A DNA stretch of 64,000 nt from the NCBI GenBank assembly GCA_937935355.1, contig CALGYR010000143.1, positions 8,077-72,076 of the forward strand. The letters run 5' to 3'. The stretch comes from an uncultured bacterium (GTDB lineage: Bacteria > Planctomycetota > SZUA-567 > JAKLDR01). Positions 30,246 to 41,637 of the stretch are shown here, piece after piece; positions within the stretch are counted from its first letter, which is position 1; every line of letters starts with the position of its first letter. A model generated the notes under the pieces. That model was not told the origin of the DNA and searched no databases. It was given only the letters and a program-made list of their open reading frames with translations. Made by a program: the position numbers and the translations under genes.

Positions 30246-30512
30246 CTTATGTCTCCGGCTAAAGAAGTAGCATATAAGATAGTACTAGCAGGTGGTCTGC
30301 AGTCAATCGCAAACGTCGACTTCTCTGGCTGCACAACGTAAGTGACGGATATGCGCTTGTTGCGCCTTGAGCGCCGAAAATCTCGGTGCGTTCCGACTTC
30401 TGGCACGTGCCGTGTTATTGGAGCCTCCCGGTTGACACGGCCGGGCCGGCGGCGCACGAGTCTCACCCGGTGATCGACGACGTGCGTTCCGCGGAGGGAT
30501 CTGACGATGGCG

Positions 30513-30585
30513 TGTCAGCAGCGAGTGTCGCTCAACGGCAGAGCACCGGGCCTGTAGCCCGGGGATGCGGGTTCGAATCCCGCCA
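30513..30585 (+). tRNA. tRNA-like cloverleaf A (Thr-like; anticodon-position TGT); atypical, possibly a pseudo-tRNA or mimic
   Basis: Fold: acceptor GCGAGTG/CATTCGA with a G1:A72 mismatch. D-arm GCTC-AACGGCA-GAGC, anticodon arm CCGGG-CCTGTAG-CCCGG (C at position 33 where U is near-invariant), T-arm GCGGG-TTCGAAT-CCCGC. No CCA. Its 3' end overlaps the next element by ~3 nt. Confidence 0.4.
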
Positions 30586-30588
30586 TTC

Positions 30589-30672
30589 GATCGGACAGCC
30601 CAACGGCTGGGCACCAGACTGAGGATCTGGCGAGCGTAAGCTCATGCAGGTTCGAATCCTGCTCCGAAGGCC
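30589..30672 (+). tRNA. tRNA-like cloverleaf B (class II, Leu-like; anticodon GAG); acceptor end imperfect
   Basis: D-arm GCCC-AACGGCT-GGGC. Anticodon arm CCAGA-CTGAGGA-TCTGG (U33 present). Long variable arm C-GAGC-GTAA-GCTC-AT. T-arm GCAGG-TTCGAAT-CCTGC. The acceptor GATCGGA/TCCGAAG pairs in only 5 of 7 positions. Confidence 0.45.
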
Positions 30673-31185
30673 TTTAAGGCTTTCCAAACGGCTGGAGGGG
30701 AGCGGCCGCTCGACCTGCCGGCCGGGAAGAGGACTCCGGTGGAACCTCGCCCGGCAGCATGCGAGCTCGCCCTGAGGCGCGCGGATACCGTCCCGCCCGA
30801 AACCCCGCGACGGCCCCGGGAAGAAAGTCGAGGCCCGCACGGCTCGATGGATTCCCCGCGCCAGAGCGGGTTAGTAGGGCAGGTCTCAAACGCGACCCCG
30901 CGAAGGAACTGCGGTGGACGGACGGCCGCTCCCTGAAGGCTAGCACATCGAGCGATTGGAGGGCGAGGCTCCTGCCGAGCCGCGCCCCACATCGAGAGAA
31001 GAACGAACCGGCTCGCCAGGAGGCTCGCCCTCCAGACGGCCGCAAGAAGAAATAAGCCTACGGAGAGAAGAGAAACGATGAGAGCACCAAGCTGGTCGCT
31101 GGCCTAACGGGAAGGCGACCGGTCGCGACGGAAGGTCCCGGGGAGTCTCCGGGGCGATCAGTCAAAGCTGAAAGGGGGAATGGGT

Positions 31186-31257
31186 TGGCTGCTAGCTCAA
31201 GCGGCAGAGCACCCGCCCGCAAGGCGGACCATCCTGGCTCGAAACCAGGGCAGTCAG
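31186..31257 (+). tRNA. tRNA-like cloverleaf C (Cys-like; anticodon GCA); atypical C33 and C54
   Basis: Acceptor TGGCTGC/GCAGTCA (7 bp including one G:U), U8. D-arm GCTC-AAGCGGCA-GAGC. Anticodon arm CCCGC-CCGCAAG-GCGGA (C33, G38). T-arm CCTGG-CTCGAAA-CCAGG (C54). Discriminator G, no CCA. Confidence 0.5.
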
Positions 31258-31264
31258 CCGGAAC

Positions 31265-31340
31265 TGGTCGCTAGCTCAAGGGATAGAGCGTCCGCCCGCG
31301 AAGCGGGAGAGTCCTGGTTCGAATCCGGGGCGACCAGCCA
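31265..31340 (+). tRNA. tRNA-like cloverleaf D (Arg-like D-arm; anticodon-position GCG); atypical C33
   Basis: Acceptor TGGTCGC/GCGACCA, U8A9. D-arm GCTC-AAGGGATA-GAGC. Anticodon arm TCCGC-CCGCGAA-GCGGG (C33; a GCG anticodon is not normally used in bacteria). T-arm CCTGG-TTCGAAT-CCGGG. G + CCA encoded. Begins 5 nt after element C. Confidence 0.5.
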
Positions 31341-31350
31341 GACGCTGGAA

Positions 31351-31412
31351 GGCACATAGGCACATAGGCACATAGGGACTGAGGCACTGAGGCACTGAGG
31401 CACTTAGGCGCT
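31351..31412. repeat. tandem octamer repeats (GGCACATA)x3 then (GGCACTGA)x4
   Basis: ggcacataggcacataggcacatagggactgaggcactgaggcactgaggcacttaggcgctgag, directly after tRNA-like D and upstream of the SPFH gene. Confidence 0.7.
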
Positions 31413-31417
31413 GAGCG

Positions 31418-31434
31418 AAGGCAAGCGCGTTGCC
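31418..31434 (+). promoter_or_regulatory. sigma54-type promoter candidate (aGGCAAG-cgcg-TTGCc; GG-N10-GC)
   Basis: Matches TGGCACG-N4-TTGCW at 12 of 14 positions with correct -24 GG / -12 GC spacing, 14 nt upstream of the SPFH start codon. Expected for an RtcR-controlled operon. Caveat: the predicted TSS would leave almost no leader. Confidence 0.35.
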
Positions 31435-31447
31435 GGAGGGAAGAACG

Positions 31448-32554
31448 ATGTTGTTCGTGAAGCGGATCAAGATCGCCAAGCTCGAGAAGGGGCTCTACTT
31501 CAAGGACCGGGAGTTCCAGGGCATCCTGGAGCCGGGCAAGTACCGGTTCCTCGACCCGCTCGGCAAGGTCCGGGTCGAGGTCGTCTCGGTGCGCGACCCG
31601 TGGCTGGTCCACCGCGAGCTCGACGTGATCGTCAAGTCGGGCGCGCTCAAGGACCGGGCGGCCGTCGTGGACCTGAAGGACCACGAGCGGGCCCTGGTCT
31701 GGATCGACGGCCGGTTCGACACGGTGCTCGACTCGGGCCTCTGGGCGCTCTGGACCGGCTTCCGCGACGTCAGGGTCGAGATGGTCGACGCGCGGCAGGT
31801 GCGGTTCGAGCACGCCGAGCTCCAGACCATCCTAAAGGCCAAGGGCGCCGACGCCGTCTTCAACGTCTTCACTGTCGAGGACGGCCACGCGGGCCTGTAC
31901 TTCAGGGACGGCGAGTTCGCGAGCCGTCTGGGTCCGGGCACCTACGCCTTCTGGAAGAACGTCGGCAGGGTGAAGCTCTACCAGGTCGACATGCGCGAGG
32001 CGGTGGCCGACGTCGCCGGTCAGGAGATCATGACCGCCGACAAGGTCACCCTGCGACTCAACGCGGTAGTGACCTACCGCGTCTCGGACCCGGTGAAGAC
32101 CGTGACCGAGGTGGAGGACGCCAGGCAGGCGCTCTACCGCGAGGCGCAGCTCGCGCTCCGCGCGGTGATCGGCACCCGGGAGCTCGACGCGCTGCTCTCG
32201 GACAAGGACGCCGTGGCCCGCGAGTGGGAGGACATGGTGCGCCGGCGCGCCCCGGCCTTCGGCATGGGCGTGGTCGCGCTCGGCATCCGCGACGTGATCC
32301 TCCCCGGGGAGATGAAGGAGCTCATGAACAGGGTCACCGAGGCGAAGAAGGCGGCCGAGGCCGCGCTCATCACCCGGCGCGAGGAGACCGCCGCGATGCG
32401 CTCGCAGTCGAACACCGCCCGGATCCTCGCGGAGAACCCGACCCTCATGCGCATCAGGGAGCTGGAGGTGCTGGAGAAGATTGCCGGCAAGGCCAGGCTC
32501 AACGTGGTCCTGGGCGACAAGGGTCTGACCGAGAAGGTGGTCAACTTGCTATAG
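31448..32554 (+). CDS. SPFH/band-7 (slipin/stomatin-like) domain protein
   Basis: Start at ATG 31448 (GGAGGG RBS) inside ORF 31430..32554. The central region (...ADKVTLRLNAVVTYRVSDP...GIRDVILPGEMKELMNRVTEAKKAAEA...) is typical of the SPFH domain. Confidence 0.8.
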   Translation: MLFVKRIKIAKLEKGLYFKDREFQGILEPGKYRFLDPLGKVRVEVVSVRDPWLVHRELDVIVKSGALKDRAAVVDLKDHERALVWIDGRFDTVLDSGLWALWTGFRDVRVEMVDARQVRFEHAELQTILKAKGADAVFNVFTVEDGHAGLYFRDGEFASRLGPGTYAFWKNVGRVKLYQVDMREAVADVAGQEIMTADKVTLRLNAVVTYRVSDPVKTVTEVEDARQALYREAQLALRAVIGTRELDALLSDKDAVAREWEDMVRRRAPAFGMGVVALGIRDVILPGEMKELMNRVTEAKKAAEAALITRREETAAMRSQSNTARILAENPTLMRIRELEVLEKIAGKARLNVVLGDKGLTEKVVNLL

Positions 32555-32614
32555 AAGGGAGGTGGAGGGGGCCGGGCCGGGGCGTGTGGCCCGGCCCCCG
32601 GGGAAGGCTCATCA

Positions 32615-32687
32615 GCCACAGATAAACACAGATGAACACCGATGAGGACGACCTATAATCTGTGTCCATCTGTGTGCATCTGTGGCT
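32615..32687. repeat. MITE-like palindromic element, copy 2
   Basis: gccacagataaacacagatgaacaccgatgaggacgacctataatctgtgtccatctgtgtgcatctgtggct, 25 nt upstream of the rtcA start. Confidence 0.7.
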
Positions 32688-32711
32688 AAGAGCTGCTTCT
32701 GGAGTGAGGCC

Positions 32712-33731
32712 ATGATTACGATAGATGGTTCATTCGGCGAAGGCGGCGGGCAGATCCTCAGGACCGCCCTGGGCCTCTCGCTCGTCACCGGCAAGCCCTT
32801 CCGGATCGAGAAGATCCGGGCGGGTCGCAAGAAGCCTGGGCTCTTGCGGCAGCACCTCACTGCGGTGAACGCCGCGGCCGAGGTCGGCCGGGCCGGGGTC
32901 CGCGGCGCGGCGCTCGGCTCCGGTGAGCTCGTCTTCGAGCCGGGCCAGGTGGCTGGCGGGCGCTACCGCTGGGCCATCGGCACGGCCGGCAGCGCGACGC
33001 TCGTGCTCCAGACCGTTCTGCCGGCGCTCTTGACCGCCAGGGAGCCGAGCTCCTTGAAGCTCGAGGGCGGCACTCACAACCCGTTCGCTCCGCCCTTCGA
33101 CTTCCTCCAGAAGGCCTTCCTGCCGCTGGTATGCCGGATGGGCCCGAAGGTGGAGGCGACGCTCGTCCGGCCCGGCTTCTATCCGGCCGGCGGCGGCTGC
33201 TTCAAGGTGGAAGTCGCGCCGGCGGAGCGGCTCTCGCGGATCGACATCCCCGAGCGGGGCGAGGTCCGGCGGCGGCTGGCCCGGGCGCTCGTCGCCAACC
33301 TGCCGCTGCACATAGCGACGCGGGAGCTCACGGTCATCGGCCGGAAGCTCAACTGGCCGGACGAGTGCCTGAGGGCCGAGCCCGTCGAGGGCTCGCAGGG
33401 GCCGGGGAACATCGTGGTGATCGAGATCGAGGGCGAGGGCGTCACCGAGGTGGTCACCGGCTTCGGCGAGAAGGGCGTGCCCGCCGAGAGCGTCGCCGAC
33501 GCAGCGGTCCGGGAGGCGCGGGAGTACATCGCCGCGGGGGCCCCGGTCGGCGCGCACCTGGCCGATCAGCTCTTGGTGCCCATGGCGCTCGCCGGCGGCG
33601 GGAGCTTCCGGACGGCCGCGCCGACGCGGCATACCACGACCAACGCCAAGATCATCGGCCGGTTCCTGGATGTCGCGGTGAGGATCGAGAGGGAGGATTC
33701 GGCGACCTGGAAGGTCGCCATTTCCTCGTAG
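32712..33731 (+). CDS. rtcA: RNA 3'-terminal phosphate cyclase RtcA
   Basis: MITIDGSFGEGGGQILRTALGLSLVTGKPFRIEKIRAGRKKPGLLRQHLTAV is the hallmark N-terminus of RtcA. Full-length similarity to the family. GGAGTGAGG RBS before ATG 32712. Confidence 0.9.
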   Translation: MITIDGSFGEGGGQILRTALGLSLVTGKPFRIEKIRAGRKKPGLLRQHLTAVNAAAEVGRAGVRGAALGSGELVFEPGQVAGGRYRWAIGTAGSATLVLQTVLPALLTAREPSSLKLEGGTHNPFAPPFDFLQKAFLPLVCRMGPKVEATLVRPGFYPAGGGCFKVEVAPAERLSRIDIPERGEVRRRLARALVANLPLHIATRELTVIGRKLNWPDECLRAEPVEGSQGPGNIVVIEIEGEGVTEVVTGFGEKGVPAESVADAAVREAREYIAAGAPVGAHLADQLLVPMALAGGGSFRTAAPTRHTTTNAKIIGRFLDVAVRIEREDSATWKVAISS

Positions 33732-33734
33732 ACT

Positions 33735-33835
33735 CCTTCTCCCCTTGAGGGAGAAGGTCGGGATGAGGGGTGTGCCCCGGAGCTGAACCCCTCACCCTAG
33801 CCCTCTCCCTCAGGGGGAGAGAGAACCTGAGACGA
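33735..33835. repeat. REP-like 100-bp palindromic element, copy A (CTCCCCTTGAGGGAGA..GTGAGGGGT..ACCCCTCACCCT..CCCTCTCCCTCAGGGGGAGAG)
   Basis: Internal inverted repeats (TCCCCTTGAGGGAGA / TCTCCCTCAGGGGGAGA; TGAGGGGT / ACCCCTCA). A near-identical copy lies 600 bp downstream. Confidence 0.65.
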
Positions 33836-33860: not shown

Positions 33861-34463
33861 ATGCCCATCTACGGAGACGCTCCCAAGCTGCGCGCGGAAG
33901 TCGACCGTCAGTTGCTCGAGGATCTGCGACACTACGGCTTCGACACGGCCGGGTTGCGGATCGACTGGTCGGATGGCTGCCAGGAGGGTCATAGTGCCAG
34001 GTTCATGGATGGTGAGTTGGAGGACGACTCTTCGGTTGGGGTCCTGGATGCCGCGGGCAACGCCGTGGCCGGAGGCGCCATCAATTTCCAAAACGACGGC
34101 GACCGGGAGTTGGTGGTGTACTGGGAGGGCTTGTCTCGCTTTCAAGGGAAGGAACCGGTCGTGCTCACACGGACGTGCTGGGCTCCTTTTCCGGAGCACG
34201 TCTGGGAGCGAATGTCGGACCGTTTGAAAGACATCTGCGCACGGAAACACGCGGTGCGTTGGACGAACTCGGACCGGTGGACGAGAGAGAAGTGGCAGAA
34301 GGAGAACCCGGGGCTGGTGGCAGCCATGGAATCTTCCGCTCGTACCCCCTCTCCCCTTGAGGGAGAGGGCGGGGGTGAGGGGTTAGCCCCGGAGCCCACC
34401 CCTCACCCTGACCCTCTCCCCCAAGGGGAGAGGGGACCTAAGAGGATGGAGAATTCGGCATGA
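33861..34463 (+). CDS. hypothetical protein embedded in the rtcA-rtcB interval
   Basis: 200-aa ORF with an RBS. No recognisable domain. Its last ~40 codons (..TPSPLEGEGGGEGLAPEPTPHPDPLPQGERGP..) are encoded by REP-like copy B. Confidence 0.45.
   Translation: MPIYGDAPKLRAEVDRQLLEDLRHYGFDTAGLRIDWSDGCQEGHSARFMDGELEDDSSVGVLDAAGNAVAGGAINFQNDGDRELVVYWEGLSRFQGKEPVVLTRTCWAPFPEHVWERMSDRLKDICARKHAVRWTNSDRWTREKWQKENPGLVAAMESSARTPSPLEGEGGGEGLAPEPTPHPDPLPQGERGPKRMENSA
34338..34442. repeat. REP-like 100-bp palindromic element, copy B
   Basis: ccctctccccttgagggagagggcgggggtgaggggttagccccggagcccacccctcaccctgaccctctcccccaaggggagagg. Direct repeat of copy A. Confidence 0.65.
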
Positions 34464-35137
34464 AGCCGCGGCCTTGTCCTGAGCGCTACGCCGGGTACGT
34501 GGAGCATCCGCGATACGGCCGTGCGCCTCGCCTCACCGGCCTGGATCCCGATCCGGACTCGCCGGAGGTGCGCCTGCACTGGAACACGCGGCACTGCACG
34601 GATGCTCAGTTGAAGACGATGAAGAGGCTTCTGGGCTGGAGCCCGGCCTTCCCCGACGACGGCACACGGATGGTGCCCGGCACGGCCGTGGCCGCGGACG
34701 TGGCGCGCCAGACGCCCGCGACCGTGCCTGTCACCCACTACTACGACATCGACAAGGTCTGCCGGGACTGTCGCCGGAGATTCATCTTCTTCGCCGAGGA
34801 GCAGAAGCACTGGTACGAAGAGCTCGAATTCCCGCTCGATGCCGACGCGGTGCGCTGCGCTCCCTGTCGGAAGCGCATGCAGCACATCGGTCGGGCACGC
34901 AAGCGTTACGAGCAGTTGTCCCACGTGGCATCCCGGAACCTCGAGGAGACTCTGGAGATGGCTGACTGCTGCCTGATGCTGATCGAGGAAGCCGTCTTCC
35001 ATCAACGGCAGGCCGAGCGCGTCCGGATGCTCCTCGGGCGCGTTCCTGAGGCTGCAAAACGGGATCGGCGAGTAACGGATTTGACCGCCCGCCTCCGCGC
35101 TGTCGAGGCGGACGCGAAGCAAGGAGGTCGCAAGTGA
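34460..35137 (+). CDS. hypothetical zinc-ribbon protein, translationally coupled to rtcB
   Basis: Cys pairs CRDCRRRF...CAPCRKR suggest a zinc ribbon. Its stop overlaps the rtcB start (ATGA at 35134-35137) and its start overlaps the upstream stop. Unknown family. Confidence 0.5.
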   Translation: MKPRPCPERYAGYVEHPRYGRAPRLTGLDPDPDSPEVRLHWNTRHCTDAQLKTMKRLLGWSPAFPDDGTRMVPGTAVAADVARQTPATVPVTHYYDIDKVCRDCRRRFIFFAEEQKHWYEELEFPLDADAVRCAPCRKRMQHIGRARKRYEQLSHVASRNLEETLEMADCCLMLIEEAVFHQRQAERVRMLLGRVPEAAKRDRRVTDLTARLRAVEADAKQGGRK

Positions 35138-36528
35138 AGCCCAAGGAACTGATTGCGCTGGGTATTCCCCAGGGGGAGGCTACGAAGCGGGCCATCGCCG
35201 CCGTCCGGGCCGCGTCGCGGGCCGGCAAGGAGAAGATGGAGGTCGAGTCCGACCTCATCGCCCTGGTCGAGGACCCGGACCGGTTTGTCGAGGACGAGGT
35301 CTACGGCGAGCTCGCCGGCTACCTCGCCGAGGCGCAGCAGGCGCCGCCGGTCCGCGAGTCGCCCGTGCCCTACCGGCGTTGGGGCGAGGGGATCGAGCCC
35401 ACCGCCATCGGCCAGATGGAGAGCGCCTGCCGGCTGCCCGTCTCGGTCCGAGGGGCCTTGATGCCCGACGCCCACCAGGGCTACGGCCTGCCCATCGGAG
35501 GGGTGCTCGCCGTGCGCGACGCGGTCATCCCCTACGCGGTGGGCATGGACATTGCCTGCCGGATGAAGATGACCGTCCTCGACCTGCCCGTCGAGGCCTT
35601 GAAGCGGGATGAGAAGCGGCTGGAGGCCGCGCTGGTCCGCGAGACCGACTTCGGCATCGGTGCGTCCTTCGCCAGGCGGCGCGAACATCCGGTGATGGAC
35701 GAGGACTGGTCGGTGAGCCCCGTCACGATCCGCCACAAGGACCGCGCCTGGGCGCAGCTCGGCACCTCGGGCAGCGGCAACCACTTCGTGGAGTACGGCG
35801 TGCTCACCGTCGAGAGCGAGGCCGGCGCGCTGGGCCTCGCGCCCGGGACGTACCTCGCGATCCTGAGCCACAGCGGCAGCCGCGGCACGGGCGGCGAGGT
35901 CGCGCGCTACTACAGCGACCTGGCCATGCGCCTGCACCGCGATCTGCCCCGGGAACTCCTGCACCTGGCGTGGCTCTCGCTCGAGAGCCAGGAGGGCCGG
36001 GAGTACTGGGCGGCCATGGAGCTCATGGGCCGCTACGCCGCGGCCAACCACGAGCTCATCCACCGGCACATGGCCAGGGCGCTGGGCGTCAACGTGCTCC
36101 TCGACATCGAGAACCACCACAACTTCGCCTGGCGGGAGGAGCACTATGGCGAGGGGGTGGTGGTCCACAGGAAGGGTGCCACCCCGGCGGGGGAGGACGC
36201 CATCGGGATCATCCCCGGCTCGATGGCCACGCCGGCCTTCGTGGTCCGGGGCAAGGGCGAGCCCGAGTCGCTCAACTCCGCCTCCCACGGCGCAGGCCGC
36301 AAGATGAGCCGCACCGAGGCCAAGCGCCGCTTCCGACAGCACGACTTGGACGCCTTCCTGGCCGAGCGCGGCGTGAAGCTGCTCTCGGCGGGCATCGACG
36401 AGGCGCCCATGGCCTACAAGAAGATCGAGGAGGTCATGGCGGCGCAGACCGATCTCGTCGAGCCGCTGGCCAGGTTCGAGCCGAAACTGGTGCGCATGGC
36501 ACCGGGCTCTGAGAGAGCCGAAGATTAG
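35134..36528 (+). CDS. rtcB: RNA-splicing ligase RtcB (3'-phosphate/5'-OH RNA ligase)
   Basis: Signature RtcB metal- and GTP-binding motifs: MPDAHQGYG, GTSGSGNHF, SHSGSRG, NHHNF, SASHGAGR. Carries a ~70-aa N-terminal extension. Confidence 0.9.
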   Translation: MKPKELIALGIPQGEATKRAIAAVRAASRAGKEKMEVESDLIALVEDPDRFVEDEVYGELAGYLAEAQQAPPVRESPVPYRRWGEGIEPTAIGQMESACRLPVSVRGALMPDAHQGYGLPIGGVLAVRDAVIPYAVGMDIACRMKMTVLDLPVEALKRDEKRLEAALVRETDFGIGASFARRREHPVMDEDWSVSPVTIRHKDRAWAQLGTSGSGNHFVEYGVLTVESEAGALGLAPGTYLAILSHSGSRGTGGEVARYYSDLAMRLHRDLPRELLHLAWLSLESQEGREYWAAMELMGRYAAANHELIHRHMARALGVNVLLDIENHHNFAWREEHYGEGVVVHRKGATPAGEDAIGIIPGSMATPAFVVRGKGEPESLNSASHGAGRKMSRTEAKRRFRQHDLDAFLAERGVKLLSAGIDEAPMAYKKIEEVMAAQTDLVEPLARFEPKLVRMAPGSERAED

Positions 36529-36540
36529 GCGGTTCCTGGT

Positions 36541-36574
36541 TCCTAGTTCCTGGTTCCTGGTTGGTAGGACGGGG
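36541..36574. repeat. (GGTTCCT)n tandem array, complementary to the arm units of hairpin 28510-28576
   Basis: ggttcctggttcctagttcctggttcctggttgg, downstream of rtcB. Confidence 0.6.
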
Positions 36575-36694
36575 CGTTGCCGAGTTGCCGGGTTCCGGGT
36601 AAGGTTCGGAAGCGGTCGCCCCGGGTTGTCATGCTGAGCGCAGCGAAGCATCTTCCCGGCAGGCGATTCTGGCAAAAGGCTGCCCGGCAGGAGA

Positions 36695-37507
36695 ATGGAG
36701 ATGGCGATGTTCGACGTACGACAGGCTGACTTGGCGAAGCTGAACAGCCTCACCAAGTACCCCTCGATACCGACCTATCACGTGCTCGACGAGGGCAACG
36801 GCAGCCTCGGGGAGGACCATGTGGCCTTCGATGGCCGGGTCCTGGCCACTGAGAAGGTCGACGGCACCAATTCGCGCGTGATCTGTCTGCCGGACGGCAG
36901 CTACCTGCTGGGCAGTCGCGAGGAGTTGCTCTACGCCCGGGGGGATCTCATCGGCAACCCGTCGATGGGCATCGTCGCCGCCATGAAGGACAAGGCGGAT
37001 GAGCTCCGTGGCCGCGCCCCCGACCGTGTGCGCGTCTTCTTCTGCGAGTTCTACGGCGGGGCGGTGACGGCCAACAGCCGGCAGTACACGGGGGAGCGCC
37101 GTGCGGGCTTCCGGCTCTTCGACGTGGCCGAGATCGAAGATTACGCCGCCGTCCTCGACCGTCCGGCGGCGGCGATCGCCGCATGGCGGGACGGGGGCGG
37201 GCAGCGCTACCTGGCCGAAGACGATCTCCGGCAGTTGGCCGCGGCGTCCGGCCTGGAACTGACGCCCCGCGTGGCCGAGTTGGATGCCGGGGCGCTTCCC
37301 GGGAGCCTGGTCGACGGTCTGGCCTTTCTGCAGCGGACGATCACGAAGAGCGGCTGCGTGCTCGACGACAAGGCCGGCGGCAGGCCGGAGGGCCTCGTGG
37401 TGAGGACGCCCGACCGTCGGGTCATCGCCAAGCTGCGGTTCCAAGACTACGAGAGGACGCTCAAACGGCGCGAGAAGGACGCCGGGAGCGGCAGGCGAAA
37501 GGAGTGA
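36695..37507 (+). CDS. ATP-dependent RNA ligase (Rnl-type covalent nucleotidyltransferase)
   Basis: Motif I TEKVDGTNSRV (KxDGxN). Downstream ...FFCEFYGG..., EGLVVRT (motif IV EGxV) and VIAKLRF (motif V lysine). Compact 270 aa with no obvious OB or extra domains. The true start may be ATG 36701 or 36707. Confidence 0.7.
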   Translation: MEMAMFDVRQADLAKLNSLTKYPSIPTYHVLDEGNGSLGEDHVAFDGRVLATEKVDGTNSRVICLPDGSYLLGSREELLYARGDLIGNPSMGIVAAMKDKADELRGRAPDRVRVFFCEFYGGAVTANSRQYTGERRAGFRLFDVAEIEDYAAVLDRPAAAIAAWRDGGGQRYLAEDDLRQLAAASGLELTPRVAELDAGALPGSLVDGLAFLQRTITKSGCVLDDKAGGRPEGLVVRTPDRRVIAKLRFQDYERTLKRREKDAGSGRRKE

Positions 37508-37530
37508 GGCAGCGCGGTTGCCGACGCATC

Positions 37531-38307
37531 ATGGATACCAGGCATCTTATCGCCCAGTTCGGGAGGATCGGTGCGCGCCTGCAGGTCAGGAGCGCTCCGG
37601 AAGATCGCCGCGTGCGGGTCTTGGGGTTTGCGCTGGATGTGCGCGGCGACCGACGCGGTGAGTTTTTCGAACTCATCGCACCGCAGGACCGCGGCTTCCG
37701 GGTGTTGGCCCTGGACGCGAAGGATCGCCATCTCCTGCTGGAGGCCGAGGCCGACAGCGAGCGCTTCCTCTGCGGTCACGACGAGCGCCACTGGTTCGTG
37801 GCCGGCGTTAGCAACCGGGTGAGCTCGGTCCGGGCGGCAAAAGAGTCGCTGAGGCCCGAGATCGTGAGCCGGTCGCTCGAGGATCACGGTGTCCGGCCCA
37901 AGGACCGCGACCGGCGGCGGAACAAGGGCTTCGTGCGCCAGGGCGAATGGTTCTTCATTCCGGTCGGGAGGCTGGCCGTCAAGGAGAAGCTGATCCTGCG
38001 CAACGAGCCGCTCGTGCGCGGCCGTGGCAAGCCCCACATGGCCGAGGAGCTCTACCGCGAAGGCGGCCAGACCGTCCACGTCTGCCCGAAGTATCCGAAT
38101 GGCGTCACGCCGAAGGAGTACGCGGAGCTGATCGCAGCCCGGCCCGATCTCCGCCGGCTGAACTGGCGGGTGATGAGCCGCAACCCGCGGGCCTACGTCC
38201 GCGGCCGGATCCGCCATCCGGACCACAAGACCGTCCTGCTCCGCGTCTGGCACCGGGTGGTGCCCAACCAGGAGCGGATGAGCCAGAACATGGCGTTTCT
38301 GGACTGA
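37531..38307 (+). CDS. hypothetical protein (257 aa), immediately downstream of the RNA ligase
   Basis: Starts at ATG 37531 inside artefact ORF 37183..38307. Protein-like composition with no recognisable motif. Confidence 0.5.
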   Translation: MDTRHLIAQFGRIGARLQVRSAPEDRRVRVLGFALDVRGDRRGEFFELIAPQDRGFRVLALDAKDRHLLLEAEADSERFLCGHDERHWFVAGVSNRVSSVRAAKESLRPEIVSRSLEDHGVRPKDRDRRRNKGFVRQGEWFFIPVGRLAVKEKLILRNEPLVRGRGKPHMAEELYREGGQTVHVCPKYPNGVTPKEYAELIAARPDLRRLNWRVMSRNPRAYVRGRIRHPDHKTVLLRVWHRVVPNQERMSQNMAFLD

Positions 38308-38340: not shown

Positions 38341-39201
38341 ATGGACGCCAAGCGATCACGATTGTTGAAGGCAGCCCGGGCCGGCGATGCCAACGCGCAG
38401 TGTGAACTGGCGTGCTGTTACGATTTCGATCCACCTAAAGATCGAAGGCGAGCCTTTCGGTGGTATCTCAAGGCGGCGAAGAAAGGCCACGTAGAGGCTC
38501 AGAACTTCCTGGCAGAGGCCTACCGTGATGGGGCGGGAACCACACCATCGCGCAGGAAAGCGCTGCCATGGTTTCGTCGGGCGGCTGAGCAAGGAGATGC
38601 GGATGCCCAGCTATCGTTGGGCTGTGCGCTTTTCTACGGCGAAGGCTGCGGCAGGGACCGGAAGGAAGCCCTGTACTGGTACCGCAAAGCGGCTCGCCTC
38701 GGGCAGAGTTCAGCCATGCTCAACATCGGGCACATGTTCAGGCGAGGTGAAGGGCTGCCGCAGAAATGGGCAAGCGCCATCCAGTGGTACAAGAAGGCTG
38801 CCGCCAAGGGAAACGTGGCCGCCATGCACTGGCTGGCCAGGGTCCATGGCGGCCAGGAGAAGCATCCTGTAGACAGCCGTGAAGCCTTGAAGTGGCTCCA
38901 CAAAGCTGCAGCTAGGGGCGACGCGCAGTCGCAGTGCAACCTTGGCGTCCACTACATCAATGGCGAGGGCGTCCGTAAGAATGCTCGGAAGGGAGCGGCC
39001 CTGTACCGCCAGGCTGCCGAGGGTGGAGATGAGTGGGCCTTCTATCTGCTGGGGCTCTGCTATAGTGATGGGCTCGGTGTCAGGAAGAACATCCGCGTCG
39101 CGCGTGCTTGGTTCCATAAGGCGGCCGCACGGAAAGTCGCCGAGGCGAAAGAGACCATGAGAGCCATGTCTGGCGGCGCGATAGCAGGAACCAGGAGCTA
39201 G
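38341..39201 (+). CDS. Sel1-like repeat (SLR/TPR-like) protein
   Basis: Repeated ~36-aa units with the A..G.A.AQ..LG..Y..G.GV..D...A..W..KAA pattern. Locally lower GC. Confidence 0.75.
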   Translation: MDAKRSRLLKAARAGDANAQCELACCYDFDPPKDRRRAFRWYLKAAKKGHVEAQNFLAEAYRDGAGTTPSRRKALPWFRRAAEQGDADAQLSLGCALFYGEGCGRDRKEALYWYRKAARLGQSSAMLNIGHMFRRGEGLPQKWASAIQWYKKAAAKGNVAAMHWLARVHGGQEKHPVDSREALKWLHKAAARGDAQSQCNLGVHYINGEGVRKNARKGAALYRQAAEGGDEWAFYLLGLCYSDGLGVRKNIRVARAWFHKAAARKVAEAKETMRAMSGGAIAGTRS

Positions 39202-39210
39202 GAATCGCCC

Positions 39211-40614
39211 ATGCTCCTAACCATCACCACCACTCACCGCCCGGCCACCGACCTCGGCTGGCTGCTCCACAAGCACCCGGGGAAGTGCCAGTCGTTCGAG
39301 CTGCCCTTCGGGAAGGCCCACGTCTGCTATCCCGAGGCCACCGAGGAGCGCTGCACGGCGGCGCTGGTGCTCGACATCGATCCGGTGGGCTTGGTCCGCA
39401 AGCAGGGTGGTCCATCGGGCCGGGACTGGTCGCTCGAGCAGTATGTCAACGACCGGCCCTACGTGGCCTCGTCGTTCCTGAGCGTGGCCATCTCCCGGGT
39501 CTTCGGGACCGCCGTCTCCGGCACCTGTAAGAGTAAGCAGGAGCTCGCCGACTCGAAGCTGCCCTTCGAGGTCAAGCTCGCCGCCGTGCCCTGCCGGGGC
39601 GGGGAGACGCTGCTGCGTGCGCTCTTCGAGCCGCTCGGCTACTCGGTGACCGCCCGCCGCCACACGCTGGACACCAAGTTCCCGGAATGGGGCGAGAGCC
39701 TTTACCACACCGTGGAACTCGCCGGGACGGTGCGGCTGGCCGACCTGCTCTCCCACCTCTACGTGCTGGTCCCCGTCCTCGACGACGACAAGCACTACTG
39801 GGTGGGCGAGGCTGAGGTGGAGAAGCTCCTGCGCCACGGCGAAGGCTGGCTGGCCGACCATCCGGCCAAGGAGCAGATCGCCAGGCGGTATCTCTCGCAT
39901 CGCCGGAACCTGACCCGCGAGGCGCTCGCGCGGCTCGCCGACGAGGACGCCCCCGACCCGGAGGCCGAGGGCCGCTCGCGGGCTCGCGAGGAGGAGGAGG
40001 TCGAGAAGGCGCTCAACCTCAACGAGCAGCGCCTGGGCGCGGTCCTGGCGGCGCTCCGCTCGGCCGGCGCCCGGCGGGTGCTCGACCTCGGCTGCGGCGA
40101 GGGCCGGCTGCTCGGGAGCCTGATCAAGGACAAGAGCTTCACGGAGGTCGTCGGGCTCGACGCGTCCGTGCGGGCGCTCGAGATCGCCAAGCGCCGCTTG
40201 AAGCTCGACCGCCTCTCGCCCGCCGACCGCGAACGCGTGAAGCTCCTCCACGGGGCGCTCACCTACCGGGACAAGCGCCTGGCTGGCTTCGACGCCGCCG
40301 CGGTGGTGGAGGTCGTCGAGCACCTCGACCCGCCGCGCCTGGCGGCCTTCGAGCGCGTCCTCTTCGAGTTCGCCAGGCCCGCGGCCATCGTGCTCACCAC
40401 CCCGAACGTGGAGTACAACGCCAGGTTCGAGAACATGCCCGCCGGCAAGCTCCGCCACAAGGACCACCGCTTCGAGTGGACCCGCGCGGAGTTCCGGGCC
40501 TGGGCGGAGGCGGTTGCCGGACGCTTCGGCTACGCGGTGCGGTTCCTGCCGGTGGGGGCGGAGGACCCACAGTTCGGGCCGCCGACGCAGATGGCGGTAT
40601 TTGTGAGGGTCTGA
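39211..40614 (+). CDS. hen1: bacterial Hen1 RNA 3'-terminal ribose 2'-O-methyltransferase
   Basis: The MLLTITTTHRPATDLGWLLHKHP N-terminus is characteristic of bacterial Hen1. The C-terminal methyltransferase has the SAM motif VLDLGCGEGRLL and ...VVEVVEHLD... Confidence 0.85.
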   Translation: MLLTITTTHRPATDLGWLLHKHPGKCQSFELPFGKAHVCYPEATEERCTAALVLDIDPVGLVRKQGGPSGRDWSLEQYVNDRPYVASSFLSVAISRVFGTAVSGTCKSKQELADSKLPFEVKLAAVPCRGGETLLRALFEPLGYSVTARRHTLDTKFPEWGESLYHTVELAGTVRLADLLSHLYVLVPVLDDDKHYWVGEAEVEKLLRHGEGWLADHPAKEQIARRYLSHRRNLTREALARLADEDAPDPEAEGRSRAREEEEVEKALNLNEQRLGAVLAALRSAGARRVLDLGCGEGRLLGSLIKDKSFTEVVGLDASVRALEIAKRRLKLDRLSPADRERVKLLHGALTYRDKRLAGFDAAAVVEVVEHLDPPRLAAFERVLFEFARPAAIVLTTPNVEYNARFENMPAGKLRHKDHRFEWTRAEFRAWAEAVAGRFGYAVRFLPVGAEDPQFGPPTQMAVFVRV

Positions 40615-40624
40615 GAGGAGCCCC

Positions 40625-40834
40625 ATGGCCAACTCACGCGCCTTCAATCCCAACATGGTCGTCTCTGCCGGCACCCAGGTGGTGTCGCTGAAGGAGGTCC
40701 GCGGCACCAACGGCGCCATACTGCACCCCAGGGGCGCGGTGGGAGTCATCGTCAAGTCGCCGGTCGACAACGATCTGCTGATCAGGCTGAGGGTCGATCA
40801 TCTAGCAGACACAAGGCGCCTCGAACATGTCTGA
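40625..40834 (+). CDS. small hypothetical protein (69 aa)
   Basis: AGGAG RBS 5 nt before the ATG. Balanced composition. Its end overlaps the next start by 8 nt. Confidence 0.4.
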   Translation: MANSRAFNPNMVVSAGTQVVSLKEVRGTNGAILHPRGAVGVIVKSPVDNDLLIRLRVDHLADTRRLEHV

Positions 40835-41636
40835 GCGGGCGCAGGTGCGTGAGGCTGCCGTCCTGGCGGCCATTGAGGATCTCTTCGCGATCTTCGCCGC
40901 GTATCCACTGCAGCCCGTTGTCCATGGCTGTCCGCACTGCATTACCGAGCACGACAACGCACTGCTTCACTCCAGGCCGCTTCGACGGCTGACTTGGGTC
41001 GAGCTGGAACGGTACGCCTTCAAGGCTCTGACGACTTGGGGAAGTGTCGAGGATTTCAAGCACTTCCTGCCGCGGCTATTCGAACTGATCGCAGGTGAAG
41101 AAGAGTCGGTGATAGATTCCGAAGTGCTGGTCGGCAAACTTGCTGTCGGTCAGTGGGCCAGCTGGCCAGCCGCTGAACAAGGAGCGATCCGCTCATTTCT
41201 GATGGCGTGGTGGATCAAGACCATCCATGCACGAGTGGATCCATCTGAGTTTGAGCTGGATGGTGGCGTCCCTTGGAGTCATGGCGGCACACCCGCCGAT
41301 CATGTGCTATGTTGCATCAGTCGGGCCGAGGCAGATGTCGGGCCATATTTGCAGGCCTGGCTGGACGCCCAGGGCGTCGAGCCCAGTTATCACTTGGCCG
41401 TCTTCATTTGGGGCAACCTGGCCGCGATTCAAAAGGGGCGCACGACGGACAGCGCGTGCCCGGAACAGCCACAGATGGAGCAGGTGATCGCTTGGCTCCT
41501 GAAGGCCGACACGGCCAAGCACCTTGAGAAGGCCGCTGAGCGATACTGGGACAGCCCCTACGTGATCCTGATCTTGCAGGCCAGCGAGCAGCTGGACAGT
41601 CTGCGCCAGACCTTTCCGCCCAAAGCGAGGCCCTGA
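40827..41636 (+). CDS. hypothetical protein (269 aa), low-GC insertion between hen1 and pnkp
   Basis: Protein-like composition (W/F/H/Y-rich, e.g. ...HGCPHCITEHDNALLH...). Its stop lies 1 nt before the pnkp start. No family recognised. Confidence 0.5.
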   Translation: MSERAQVREAAVLAAIEDLFAIFAAYPLQPVVHGCPHCITEHDNALLHSRPLRRLTWVELERYAFKALTTWGSVEDFKHFLPRLFELIAGEEESVIDSEVLVGKLAVGQWASWPAAEQGAIRSFLMAWWIKTIHARVDPSEFELDGGVPWSHGGTPADHVLCCISRAEADVGPYLQAWLDAQGVEPSYHLAVFIWGNLAAIQKGRTTDSACPEQPQMEQVIAWLLKADTAKHLEKAAERYWDSPYVILILQASEQLDSLRQTFPPKARP

Positions 41637-41637
41637 A

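What the first reader, a model, noticed from the sequence alone, without database searches (positions are those of the whole stretch)
36695..38307. Compact ATP-dependent RNA ligase (KxDGxN) paired with an uncharacterised 257-aa protein immediately downstream of rtcB
An Rnl-family ligase sits directly after RtcB. The two seal different end chemistries: Rnl joins 5'-P/3'-OH, RtcB joins 3'-P/5'-OH. The pairing implies a locus able to repair both classes of break. The downstream 257-aa ORF has no recognisable motif and may be an end-healing or specificity partner.
Basis: partly seen in the sequence, partly recalled or inferred. Interest (0 to 1): 0.55.

Follow-up and report, generated by a model that had tools for sequence, protein, structure and literature searches.

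The report
RNA ligase plus unnamed RNA-repair protein
Right after the RNA-repair ligase gene rtcB sit a stripped-down second RNA ligase and a protein from a large, unnamed family that turns up beside RNA-repair genes in many bacteria and large phages, so it is probably an unrecognised repair component rather than the ligase's private partner.

Summary
Both ORFs are real genes with many conserved homologues. They lie inside a 16-kb same-strand RNA-repair island: rtcR | four tRNA-like genes, band-7, rtcA, two small ORFs, rtcB, ligase, X, sel1, hen1, orf269, pnkp.

**Ligase (36695-37507).** It is a single-domain ATP-dependent RNA-ligase-type nucleotidyltransferase (Pfam PF09414) with motifs I-V present. 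Its fold is closest to Rnl2, Rnl3 and Rnl5, not to DNA ligases. It belongs to the uncharacterised "divergent actinophage" ligase clade. That clade recurs beside RtcB or Ro60.

**258-aa protein "X" (37531-38307).**
- No Pfam, NCBIfam, PADLOC or PHROG family matches it, and no solved structure resembles a confident model (pLDDT 88).
- The family is large: 2,681 clusters at 50% identity.
- It is not ligase-specific. None of 80 species-representative X loci has the ligase within 10 kb. A 67%-identical relative sits directly after rtcB with no ligase.
- Twenty-seven of those 80 loci carry RtcB, RtcA, RtcR, Ro60, Tpt1 or Hen1/Pnkp on the same strand. Viral contigs add HNH, NADAR, PTH2 and NAD-salvage genes.
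- Invariant D84, R136-Q-G-E139, H169, H229, H232, N246 and a C-terminal Asp, with pI 10.9, suggest a metal-dependent RNA-end enzyme. This is inferred, not shown.

The "dedicated partner" reading does not.

The parts
36695..37507 (+). Compact single-domain ATP-dependent RNA-ligase-type nucleotidyltransferase (270 aa; the true start is probably 36701 or 36707). Motifs: I E53-K54-V-D-G-T-N59, Ia S74-R75, III E118, IIIa F142-D143, IV E232-G233...R237, V K246-L-R248.
   Evidence: Pfam PF09414 at 61.5 bits, E 1.4e-16. PHROG 548 'RNA ligase'. AF2 pLDDT 93.6. Foldseek top hits are T4 Rnl2, PabRnl and NgrRnl. hhalign register with T4 Rnl2. Invariant residues in 31 homologues.
37531..38307 (+). Protein X: 258 aa, pI 10.9, member of a large unannotated family. 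Family-wide invariant residues are D84, E85, R136-Q-G-E139, H169, H229, H232, N246, E248 and the C-terminal D258.
35134..36528 (+). RtcB, the 3'-phosphate/5'-OH RNA ligase (464 aa).
   Evidence: Pfam RtcB 293.5 bits.
36529..36694 (+). rtcB-ligase intergenic spacer. It holds a GGTTCCT x4.6 tandem repeat (36531-36562) and shows no sigma-70 promoter or terminator consensus.
28587..30245 (-). RtcR, a CARF + sigma-54 activator, transcribed divergently from the island.
   Evidence: NCBIfam RNA_repair_RtcR 828 bits.
30521..31340 (+). Four tRNA-like genes in two pairs (30521-30592, 30589-30672; 31186-31259, 31265-31340) upstream of band-7. They are candidate band-7-associated tRNAs.
   Evidence: ARAGORN. 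Rfam tRNA at 51.9 and 54.3 bits. Literature on b7a-tRNA.
31430..32554 (+). SPFH/Band-7 protein.
   Evidence: Pfam Band_7 97.8 bits. The same protein at 55-65% identity lies next to X in L010, L017, L050 and L065.
32682..33731 (+). RtcA, the RNA 3'-terminal phosphate cyclase.
   Evidence: NCBIfam 452 bits.
33861..35137 (+). Two small ORFs between rtcA and rtcB: orf200 (33861-34463, no family) and a treble-clef zinc protein (34460-35137, zf_Tbcl).
38341..39201 (+). Sel1-repeat protein.
   Evidence: Pfam Sel1 189 bits.
39211..44238 (+). hen1 (39211-40614), orf269 (40827-41636) and pnkp (41638-44238). Together these are the Pnkp/Hen1 heal-methylate-seal system.
   Evidence: Hen1_L 391.9 bits and PNKP_ligase 609.4 bits.

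Best explanation
The interval encodes two co-transcribed accessory genes of an RtcR-controlled RNA-repair (most likely tRNA-repair) island.

**Gene 1: a minimal ATP-dependent RNA ligase.** It consists of the nucleotidyltransferase domain only. From the conserved motifs it should self-adenylylate on Lys54, transfer AMP to a 5'-phosphate RNA end, and seal it to a 3'-OH. That complements RtcB, which seals 3'-P or 2',3'-cyclic-P ends to 5'-OH. Ends would first have to be healed by Pnkp, encoded 4 kb downstream, or by another enzyme.

**Gene 2 (X): a free-standing module, not the ligase's private partner.** It belongs to a large unannotated family that plugs into RtcB, Ro60, RtcA, Tpt1 and HNH operons in Planctomycetota, Verrucomicrobiota and Acidobacteriota, and into RNA-repair and NAD-ADP-ribose islands of large viral contigs. 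In the window's lineage the ligase gene lies between rtcB and X.

**Most likely role of X (inferred, about 0.35 on its own).** It is a metal-dependent enzyme acting on broken RNA ends or their phosphate adducts. Candidate substrates are 2',3'-cyclic-P, 2'-P, 3'-P or ADP-ribose-cyclic-P. It would prepare or clean substrates for whichever sealing or clean-up enzyme it is encoded with.

The gene identities, family memberships and neighbourhood statistics are shown. Transcription as one RtcR/sigma-54 unit, all enzyme activities and X's chemistry are inferred.
For: **Ligase**
- PF09414 match.
- Confident model whose best solved matches are all RNA ligases.
- Motif register with T4 Rnl2: K54=K35, R75=R55, E118=E99, F142-D143=F119-D120, E232=E204.
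- 42% identical over 90% of its length to Streptomyces phage JustBecause gp136, AYD81305.1. Iyer et al. 2021 name that protein as a divergent RNA ligase outside Rnl1 and Rnl2.
- RtcB lies next to ligase relatives in 12 of 80 metagenome loci, Ro60 in 6 and Band-7 in 5.

**X**
- 554 confirmed relatives in species-representative genomes.
- Of the best 80 loci, 27 have RtcB, RtcA, RtcR, Ro60, Tpt1 or Hen1/Pnkp within 8 kb, nearly always on the same strand. The count is 32 if Band-7 and HNH are included. The ligase is in 0.
- Recurrent gene orders: RtcR<|>RtcB-RtcA-X-Ro; X-HNH-..-Ro-RtcB; RtcR<|>RtcB-X; X-Tpt1 with a gap of about 100 nt, seen five times.
- These contexts span several deep branches of the X tree.
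- In IMG/VR contigs X sits beside RtcB, HNH, Ro60, PTH2, NADAR, NAD-salvage genes, a metallophosphoesterase and, once, the ligase.
- Residues invariant across 127 sequences down to 24% identity: D84, R136-Q-G-E139, H169, H229, H232, N246 and the C-terminal D258.
- pI 10.85.
Against: - No biochemical data exist for either family.
- About 60% of X loci show no RNA-repair neighbour. A large Planctomycete clade is mostly solo, so X may have a housekeeping role independent of these operons.
- The model matches no known hydrolase fold. An enzymatic role therefore rests only on the pattern of invariant His, Asp, Glu and Asn residues.
- Healing ends to 3'-OH would work against RtcB, so one single chemistry does not obviously suit all contexts.
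- The sigma-54 promoter candidate at 30401-30416 is not above chance.
- I could not read Burroughs & Aravind 2016. That paper may already name X.
Confidence: 0.7

Rival explanations
1. One reading: X is a dedicated end-healing or specificity subunit of the compact ligase, and the two work as an obligate pair.
For: - The two genes are 23 nt apart here and in L083.
- In every ligase-containing RtcB operon with enough upstream sequence, X is present: window, L083, L089, L093, L095 and L097.
- One viral contig has X and the ligase 1 kb apart (L210).
- The ligase lacks the accessory domains that Rnl2 and Rnl5 use to engage substrate, so a trans-acting partner is conceivable.
Against: - None of 80 species-representative X loci has the ligase within 10 kb.
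- L084 has RtcB-X with no ligase.
- In L089, L093, L095 and L097, X is 2-3 kb from the ligase, with RtcB and small ORFs in between.
- L121 and phage JustBecause pair the ligase with Ro60 and lack X.
- 67 of 83 ligase loci have no repair neighbour at all, and about 20 of those are longer than 5 kb.
Confidence: 0.08
2. X is a non-catalytic RNA-binding adaptor or cofactor. It could be an archease-like activator of RtcB or a Ro60-associated RNA chaperone that recognises broken tRNA.
For: - Very basic protein, pI 10.85.
- The commonest neighbours are RtcB and Ro60.
- The invariant C-terminal F-L-D tail could be a docking peptide.
Against: - Nine polar residues are invariant down to 24% identity: three His plus Asp, Glu, Asn, Arg and Gln. 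That is more typical of an active site than of a binding surface.
- X also pairs with Tpt1, NADAR and PTH2 where RtcB and Ro60 are absent.
- No similarity to archease or any Pfam RNA-binding domain.
Confidence: 0.2
3. X is a nuclease, toxin or regulator. It would either create the RNA or DNA damage, or control transcription of the operon, rather than repair anything.
For: - X is often the first gene of X-HNH-... operons.
- Weak AP2-like DNA-binding resemblance.
- Defence-type genes (AAA_21, Schlafen/AlbA_2) flank the island.
Against: - No PADLOC hit.
- X coexists with the dedicated regulator RtcR and lies internal to its operon: L056, L067, L082, L084, L093 and the window.
- No adjacent antitoxin-like partner is conserved.
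- There is no helix-turn-helix.
Confidence: 0.07
4. The first ORF is a DNA ligase or an mRNA-capping-type nucleotidyltransferase rather than an RNA ligase.
For: The KxDGxN form of motif I (Asp rather than the His of T4 Rnl2) is shared with DNA ligases. Foldseek also lists DNA ligases.
Against: - DNA ligases score three or more orders of magnitude worse than RNA ligases.
- There is no OB domain.
- The Pfam and PHROG hits are to RNA ligase only.
- All genomic contexts are RNA repair: RtcB, Ro60, tRNA genes.
Confidence: 0.03

Closest known systems
Divergent actinophage-type RNA ligase (Streptomyces phage JustBecause gp136, AYD81305.1), noted by Iyer et al. 2021 as lying outside Rnl1 and Rnl2
   Same: 42% identity over 90% of the length, E 9e-50. 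Same size, about 250 aa, and single-domain. Encoded next to RNA-repair partners: Ro-like protein and tRNA genes in the phage, Ro60 or RtcB in cellular relatives.
   Different: The window copy sits after rtcB in an RtcR island with no Ro60. No member of the clade has been characterised biochemically, as far as the papers I could read show.
T4 RNA ligase 2 (Rnl2), nucleotidyltransferase domain
   Same: Best structural match (2hvr, 1s68; E about 1e-8). The catalytic motif register is conserved: K35, R55, E99, F119-D120 and E204 have counterparts.
   Different: Only 15-18% identity, and sequence searches against the PDB find nothing. It lacks the Rnl2 C-terminal domain. Motif I has Asp where Rnl2 has His37. 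The second basic residues of motifs IV and V are Arg, not Lys. It has a conserved 50-aa N-terminal segment (LNSLTKYPSIPTYH) and a helical insert at about 150-215.
RtcR-regulated rtcBA / rsr-yrlBA-rtcBA RNA-repair operons (E. coli, Salmonella) and the Band-7 + b7a-tRNA variant predicted by Burroughs & Aravind 2016
   Same: Divergent RtcR, with RtcA, RtcB, Band-7 and upstream tRNA-like genes all on one strand.
   Different: This island adds a second ligase, X, a treble-clef protein and a Sel1 protein, and is fused to a hen1-pnkp cassette. That puts three sealing enzymes in one 16-kb block.
Fungal/plant Trl1 + Tpt1 heal-and-seal pathway (2H cyclic phosphodiesterase, kinase, ATP-dependent ligase, then Tpt1)
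   Same: X is found next to each kind of player in that logic: an ATP-dependent ligase (window), Tpt1/KptA (five X-Tpt1 operons) and NADAR with NAD-salvage genes. That is the position a cyclic-phosphate or 2'-phosphate processing enzyme would occupy.
   Different: X has only one H-x-T motif (H232-K-T234) and no 2H fold. No Tpt1 is present in the window. This is a functional analogy only and is untested.
Archease (RtcB activator)
   Same: A small accessory protein encoded with RtcB.
   Different: No sequence or fold similarity. X also occurs without RtcB.

Membership tests
ATP-dependent RNA ligase / covalent nucleotidyltransferase (Pfam PF09414 RNA_ligase) | Profile match above the curated threshold | tested here: met
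   61.5 bits against a cut-off of 27. Residues 48-247 cover profile positions 2-170 of 171.
ATP-dependent RNA ligase / covalent nucleotidyltransferase (Pfam PF09414 RNA_ligase) | Motif I KxDGxN lysine nucleophile, plus motifs Ia, III, IIIa, IV and V | tested here: met
   E53-K54-V-D-G-T-N59, S74-R75, E118, F142-D143, E232-G233..R237 and K246..R248 are invariant in 31 homologues. Motifs I-IV are in register with T4 Rnl2 by hhalign. Motif V is placed by inspection only.
ATP-dependent RNA ligase / covalent nucleotidyltransferase (Pfam PF09414 RNA_ligase) | Fold closer to RNA ligases than to DNA ligases or capping enzymes | tested here: met
   Foldseek ranks 1-30 are all RNA ligases (Rnl2, Rnl3, Rnl5, REL1), E 9e-9 to 2e-6. 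The first DNA ligase appears at 3e-5.
ATP-dependent RNA ligase / covalent nucleotidyltransferase (Pfam PF09414 RNA_ligase) | ATP-dependent self-adenylylation and 3'-OH/5'-P RNA sealing | not testable with these tools
   Needs purified protein.
Rnl2 family proper (T4 Rnl2, REL1) | C-terminal helical domain after motif V | tested here: not met
   The protein ends 22 residues after K246/R248, in a single helix. There is no significant sequence match to any Rnl2 chain.
Rnl5 family (DraRnl, NgrRnl) | N-terminal OB-like domain before the nucleotidyltransferase domain | tested here: not met
   Only 53 residues precede Lys54. They form one helix and short strands.
Divergent actinophage-type RNA ligase clade (AYD81305.1) | Full-length sequence similarity to the named exemplar | tested here: met
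   tblastn 41.9% identity, 90% coverage, E 9e-50 to JustBecause gene 136 = AYD81305.1. The exemplar is cited in PMC7824862.
RtcR-regulated Rtc RNA-repair operon | Divergent RtcR (CARF + sigma-54 AAA+), with RtcB and RtcA on the opposite strand | tested here: met
   RtcR 828 bits, RtcA 452 bits and RtcB 293 bits. All island genes are on the + strand.
RtcR-regulated Rtc RNA-repair operon | Sigma-54 promoter, and co-transcription of the ligase and X with rtcB | tested here: inconclusive
   TGGCAC-N5-GTGT at 30401-30416 has 2 mismatches and is not above chance. No terminator or sigma-70 site lies between rtcB and X. There are no expression data.
Any curated protein family or solved fold (for X) | Significant profile or structural match | tested here: not met
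2H phosphoesterase (cyclic phosphodiesterase), considered for X | Two H-x-T/S motifs on a 2H fold | tested here: not met
Archease, considered for X | Archease domain | tested here: not met
   No Pfam hit at E<=1 in 36 members. No structural match.

The most novel reading that the evidence does not exclude
X founds a previously unrecognised class of RNA-repair enzyme, with a fold not represented among solved structures. It would be a metal-dependent processor of damaged RNA termini or their phosphate/ADP-ribose adducts, working with RtcB, Ro60, Tpt1/KptA and ATP-dependent ligases in bacteria and large phages. Its X-Tpt1 operons could reveal what generates the substrates of bacterial Tpt1, whose role in taxa without fungal-type tRNA splicing is still open.
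Probability: 0.3. Interest if true: 0.8.

Novelty: new variant of a known kind. Interest (0 to 1): 0.6.

Why it matters
RNA-repair operons are known to be modular, but the parts list is incomplete. The in-vivo logic of bacterial RtcB, Ro60 and Tpt1 is still unclear.

This locus points to a large protein family with these properties:
- 2,681 clusters at 50% identity, found in several bacterial phyla and on large viral contigs.
- No annotation and no detectable solved-fold relative.
- An active-site-like set of invariant residues.
- Genomic linkage to nearly every known RNA-end enzyme.

If X is an end-processing enzyme or an RtcB/Ro cofactor, it would fill a gap in how broken tRNAs are prepared for resealing. 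It would also give a handle on the unexplained bacterial Tpt1.

The compact ligase is a natural minimal RNA ligase from a clade noted in the literature but never characterised. It could be of enzymological and biotechnological interest.

Tried and rejected
- **AlphaFold-database fold search (afdb50).** Not installed, so annotated AFDB neighbours of X could not be checked.
- **Burroughs & Aravind 2016.** Not held under DOI or PMC id. I cannot exclude that X is named there.
- **Exact look-up of X (P0001).** No record.
- **Internal duplication in X.** hhalign of the N-terminal half against the C-terminal half gave probability 0.7%. Rejected.
- **Fusion clue P0363 (735 aa, X core + WD40).** It is a single case and probably a gene-call chimera. 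Uninformative.
- **The 276-aa ORF that follows the ligase in L088-L093 as a hidden X homologue.** hhalign probability 1.2%. Rejected.
- **Weak Pfam hits in a few X relatives** (S1CSD-TOTE-2 E 0.005, MunI, Ntox1). All below significance.
- **X on plasmids or in GenBank phages.** No match, although IMG/VR contigs do carry it.
- **Sigma-54 promoter scan.** No enrichment over shuffles.
- **P-loop reading of R-G-x-G-K-P-H in X.** The Lys is not conserved. Rejected.
Full report
**1. The observation**

The window at 36695-38307 contains two adjacent + strand ORFs.

- **Ligase.** It runs 36695-37507, 270 aa from the first ATG. Public gene calls start at 36701, giving 268 aa. Homologues begin at the equivalent of Met5, position 36707.
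- **Second ORF, here called X.** It runs from ATG 37531 to the stop at 38307. It starts 23 nt after the ligase stop.
- **rtcB.** It runs 35134-36528 and ends 166 nt upstream of the ligase. The spacer has a GGTTCCT x4.6 repeat. It contains no sigma-70 promoter or terminator consensus.

Both ORFs are real genes. They have 1,277 and more than 6,880 database relatives respectively. Two independent assemblies call the same genes.

**2. The surroundings**

The pair sits in a 16-kb one-strand RNA-repair island. Its gene order is:

| Coordinates | Strand | Gene | Evidence |
|---|---|---|---|
| 28587-30245 | - | rtcR | NCBIfam 828 bits |
| 30521-30672 and 31186-31340 | + | four tRNA-like genes in two pairs | |
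| 31430-32554 | + | SPFH/Band-7 | Pfam |
| 32682-33731 | + | rtcA | NCBIfam |
| 33861-34463 | + | orf200 | no family |
| 34460-35137 | + | treble-clef zf_Tbcl protein | Pfam |
| 35134-36528 | + | rtcB | Pfam |
| 36695-37507 | + | ligase | Pfam |
| 37531-38307 | + | X | no family |
| 38341-39201 | + | Sel1 protein | Pfam |
| 39211-40614 | + | hen1 | Pfam |
| 40827-41636 | + | orf269 | no family |
| 41638-44238 | + | pnkp | Pfam |

The locus therefore encodes three sealing enzymes: RtcB, the compact ligase and the Pnkp ligase domain. The tRNA-like genes upstream of band-7 occupy the position of the "band-7-associated tRNA" predicted by Burroughs & Aravind 2016. I know that prediction only as quoted in bioRxiv 10.1101/312249.

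**3. The ligase**

- Pfam RNA_ligase (PF09414) matches at 61.5 bits against a cut-off of 27. PHROG 548 "RNA ligase" matches at 1.4e-9.
- Sequence searches of the PDB find nothing, either with the single sequence or with a family profile.
- An AF2 model built on 31 homologues is confident: pLDDT 93.6, pTM 0.90.
- The 30 best Foldseek hits for that model are all ATP-dependent RNA ligases. They include T4 Rnl2 (2hvr/1s68/2hvq), Pyrococcus and Methanobacterium Rnl3, Naegleria Rnl5 and TbREL1, at E 9e-9 to 2e-6. DNA ligases begin at 3e-5.
- hhalign of the family profile against that sequence puts the catalytic residues in register: K54=K35, R75=R55, E118=E99, F142-D143=F119-D120, and E232-G..R237=E204-G..K209.
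- Motif V (K246-L-R248) follows. I placed it by inspection only.
- All of these residues are invariant in 31 homologues.

The protein is only the nucleotidyltransferase domain. It has no Rnl2 C-terminal domain and no Rnl5 N-terminal OB domain. It has a conserved N-terminal LNSLTKYPSIPTYH segment and a helical insert.

It is 42% identical over 90% of its length to gp136 of Streptomyces phage JustBecause, AYD81305.1. Iyer et al. 2021 cite exactly that protein as a rare divergent RNA ligase outside Rnl1 and Rnl2 (PMC7824862). In the phage it lies next to a Ro-like protein and tRNA genes. The clade has thus been noticed. I found no characterisation of it in the papers I could read.

**4. Is RtcB-ligase a recurrent pairing?**

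Yes, for a sub-clade. Among 80 metagenomic loci of ligase relatives, neighbours within 8 kb were counted:

| Neighbour | Loci out of 80 |
|---|---|
| RtcB | 12 (usually immediately upstream) |
| Ro60 | 6 |
| Band-7 | 5 |
| X | 4 |

- L083, from a MAG, has ligase at 70% and X at 71% identity. It repeats RtcB-ligase-X exactly.
- L121 has HNH, an EF-Tu paralogue, Ro60 and the ligase, with no RtcB.
- Most ligase relatives are solitary. Examples are Tahibacter, L085 and L086. In all, 67 of 83 loci show no repair neighbour, and about 20 of those are longer than 5 kb.

**5. X is not a ligase partner**

A scan of one genome per species found 554 confirmed X relatives.

- In the best 80 loci, with up to 10 kb on each side, the ligase is present in none.
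- The next-closest relative (67% identity, L084) has RtcR<|>RtcB-X. X starts 23 nt after rtcB, and no ligase lies between them.
- In the window's lineage the ligase gene therefore lies between an RtcB-X pair that is contiguous in L084.
- Where ligase-containing Rtc operons are long enough to judge, X is present in all six: window, L083, L089, L093, L095 and L097. In the last four it lies 2-3 kb away, upstream of RtcB.

The ligase-bearing operons are a small subset of X-bearing operons, not the reverse.

**6. What X travels with**

Within 8 kb, the 80 unbiased loci show these neighbours:

| Neighbour | Loci out of 80 | Note |
|---|---|---|
| HNH endonuclease | 14 | nine within 300 nt downstream |
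| RtcB | 13 | |
| Ro60 (TROVE + vWA) | 12 | |
| Window-type Band-7 | 6 | |
| Tpt1/KptA | 5 | each about 100 nt downstream on the same strand |
| RtcA | 3 | |
| True RtcR | 3 | |
| Hen1/Pnkp | 1 | |

- Overall, 27 of 80 loci have at least one repair enzyme or Ro60. The count is 32 of 80 with Band-7 and HNH.
- Almost all of these neighbours are on X's strand.
- My own estimate, not computed with a tool: a single-copy gene in a 5-9 Mb genome would lie within 8 kb of a random gene well under 1% of the time.
- A neighbour-joining tree shows the RtcB, Ro, HNH and Band-7 contexts spread over several deep branches. A large Planctomycete branch is mostly solitary or paired with Tpt1.

IMG/VR viral contigs hold 104 further relatives, some down to 24% identity. 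Many of these contigs are 100-500 kb. There X neighbours RtcB, HNH (11 loci), Ro60, PTH2 peptidyl-tRNA hydrolase (directly upstream) and NADAR (directly adjacent). It also neighbours PncA-NadE-NAPRT NAD-salvage genes, a calcineurin-type phosphoesterase, ARPP-1 and, once, the ligase.

These are the gene sets that the Aravind laboratory describes as phage tRNA-repair and NAD-ADP-ribose counter-defence modules (PMC9503650, PMC7824862).

**7. What X is**

- No Pfam, NCBIfam, PADLOC or PHROG family matches X or its relatives. No PDB sequence matches either.
- An exhaustive profile search finds 2,681 representatives at 50% identity with E<=1e-3, and 628 at E<=1e-30. Nearly all are stand-alone proteins of 250-290 aa.
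- The AF2 model is confident (pLDDT 88.4, pTM 0.77). It is largely beta, with two halves joined by two helices and a basic linker.
- pI is 10.85.
- Across 127 sequences, including 35 viral relatives below 32% identity, these residues are 90-100% conserved: D84, E85, R136-Q137-G138-E139, H169, H229, H232, N246, E248 and the very C-terminal D258.
- Three histidines plus Asp, Glu, Asn and Arg is the signature of a metal-dependent active site. This is an inference from sequence only.

**8. Mechanism proposed**

*Shown:* gene identities, family memberships and neighbourhood statistics.

*Inferred:*
- The island is one RtcR/sigma-54-driven unit, activated by broken tRNA as in Salmonella (PMC7790460).
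- RtcB reseals cyclic-P/5'-OH breaks.
- Pnkp/Hen1, and the compact ligase after healing, reseal 3'-OH/5'-P breaks.
- X acts on RNA termini or their phosphate adducts.

The recurring theme among X's partners is cyclic- or 2'-phosphate chemistry:
- RtcA makes 2',3'-cyclic-P from 3'-P or 2'-P ends (PMC3854526).
- RtcB consumes it.
- Tpt1 removes 2'-P and releases ADP-ribose-cyclic-P.
- NADAR is proposed to process ADP-ribose derivatives.

I therefore favour an end- or adduct-processing hydrolase, at about 0.35. Next comes a non-catalytic RNA-binding cofactor of RtcB or Ro60, at about 0.2. A nuclease, toxin or regulator role and the dedicated-ligase-partner model are each below 0.1.

**9. Comparison and novelty**

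- The ligase is a new member of a noted but uncharacterised divergent RNA-ligase clade.
- The island is a variant of known Rtc, Band-7 and Pnkp-Hen1 systems.
- X is the novel element. It is a widespread, unannotated family with no solved-fold relative, and it is firmly embedded in RNA-repair contexts.
- I could not read Burroughs & Aravind 2016, so prior naming of X cannot be excluded. Pfam contains many domains defined by that laboratory, such as zf_Tbcl and ARPP-1, but has none for X.

**10. Verdict**

The ligase call and the dual-chemistry reading hold. The dedicated-partner reading does not.
- Interest is 0.6, driven by X.

Noticed in passing
window 30521-30592, 30589-30672, 31186-31259, 31265-31340: Four tRNA-like genes in two tandem pairs lie between rtcR and band-7. 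ARAGORN calls them Thr-tgt, Leu-gag, Cys-gca and Arg-gcg, and the first pair overlaps by 4 nt. Two pass the Rfam tRNA threshold (51.9 and 54.3 bits). Their position matches the predicted 'band-7-associated tRNA'. The 510 nt between the pairs contains a hairpin with 26-nt arms at 30957-31034.
   Followed up: partly
window 33723-33835 and 34344-34446; also 32614-32687: Two copies of a palindromic element of about 100 nt (81-84% identical, each self-complementary) lie within the operon. One is in the rtcA-orf200 spacer and one is in the 3' end of orf200. A third, unrelated 30-nt-arm hairpin lies in the band-7-rtcA spacer. Rfam flags all of them only as spurious miRNA-like hairpins.
   Followed up: partly
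window 36531-36562 and 31350-31415: Short tandem repeats lie in operon spacers: GGTTCCT x4.6 between rtcB and the ligase, and AGGCACTT x7.5 just upstream of band-7.
   Followed up: no
window 30401-30416: A sigma-54-like element, TGGCAC-N5-GTGT, lies 105 nt upstream of the first tRNA-like gene. It has 2 mismatches and is not above chance for the window.
   Followed up: partly
window 44471-49931: Immediately downstream of pnkp are three further genes: an AAA_21 (AbiEii/OLD-like) ATPase (44471-45685), a Schlafen AlbA_2 + HATPase_c_4 + wHTH protein (46866-48308) and a Volactin-family protein (48489-49931). The first two suggest the repair island abuts defence-type genes.
   Followed up: no
L007, L015, L016, L026, L077 (X at about 10001-10804, Tpt1 about 100 nt downstream); L001: Two-gene X-Tpt1/KptA operons occur in five Planctomycete genomes. 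In Paludisphaera borealis, Tpt1 lies 1.4 kb upstream on the opposite strand. This is a possible handle on the unknown role of bacterial Tpt1.
   Followed up: partly
L121 2589-8783; also L079 3642-4808, L016 8730-9911: An operon encodes HNH, a 474-aa EF-Tu paralogue, Ro60 and the compact ligase, with no RtcB and no X. EF-Tu paralogues also lie near X in two other loci.
   Followed up: partly
L193, L194, L197, L202, L205, L184, L185 (IMG/VR contigs): In large viral contigs, X is flanked by a PTH2 peptidyl-tRNA hydrolase fused to an NrdR-type zinc ribbon, by NADAR, and by a PncA-NadE-NAPRT NAD-salvage block. Another group of contigs has ARPP-1 plus an unannotated 537-aa protein.
   Followed up: partly
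L089 1845-2102, L093 4149-4406, L095 3606-4010, L102 351-608: A small SEC-C-motif protein recurs directly downstream of X in Ro-X-...-RtcB-ligase operons. It occurs near X in about ten loci overall.
   Followed up: no
L088, L089, L091, L092, L093 (e.g. L093 9021-9851): A conserved 276-aa protein with no Pfam family follows the ligase in these operons, between the ligase and band-7. It is unrelated to X (hhalign probability 1.2%).
   Followed up: partly
L249 (Streptomyces phage JustBecause 82465-91181): The phage homologue of the ligase (gp136) sits between a tRNA gene cluster and a Ro-like RNA-binding protein (gp135). This independently repeats the ligase-Ro60 pairing.
   Followed up: yes
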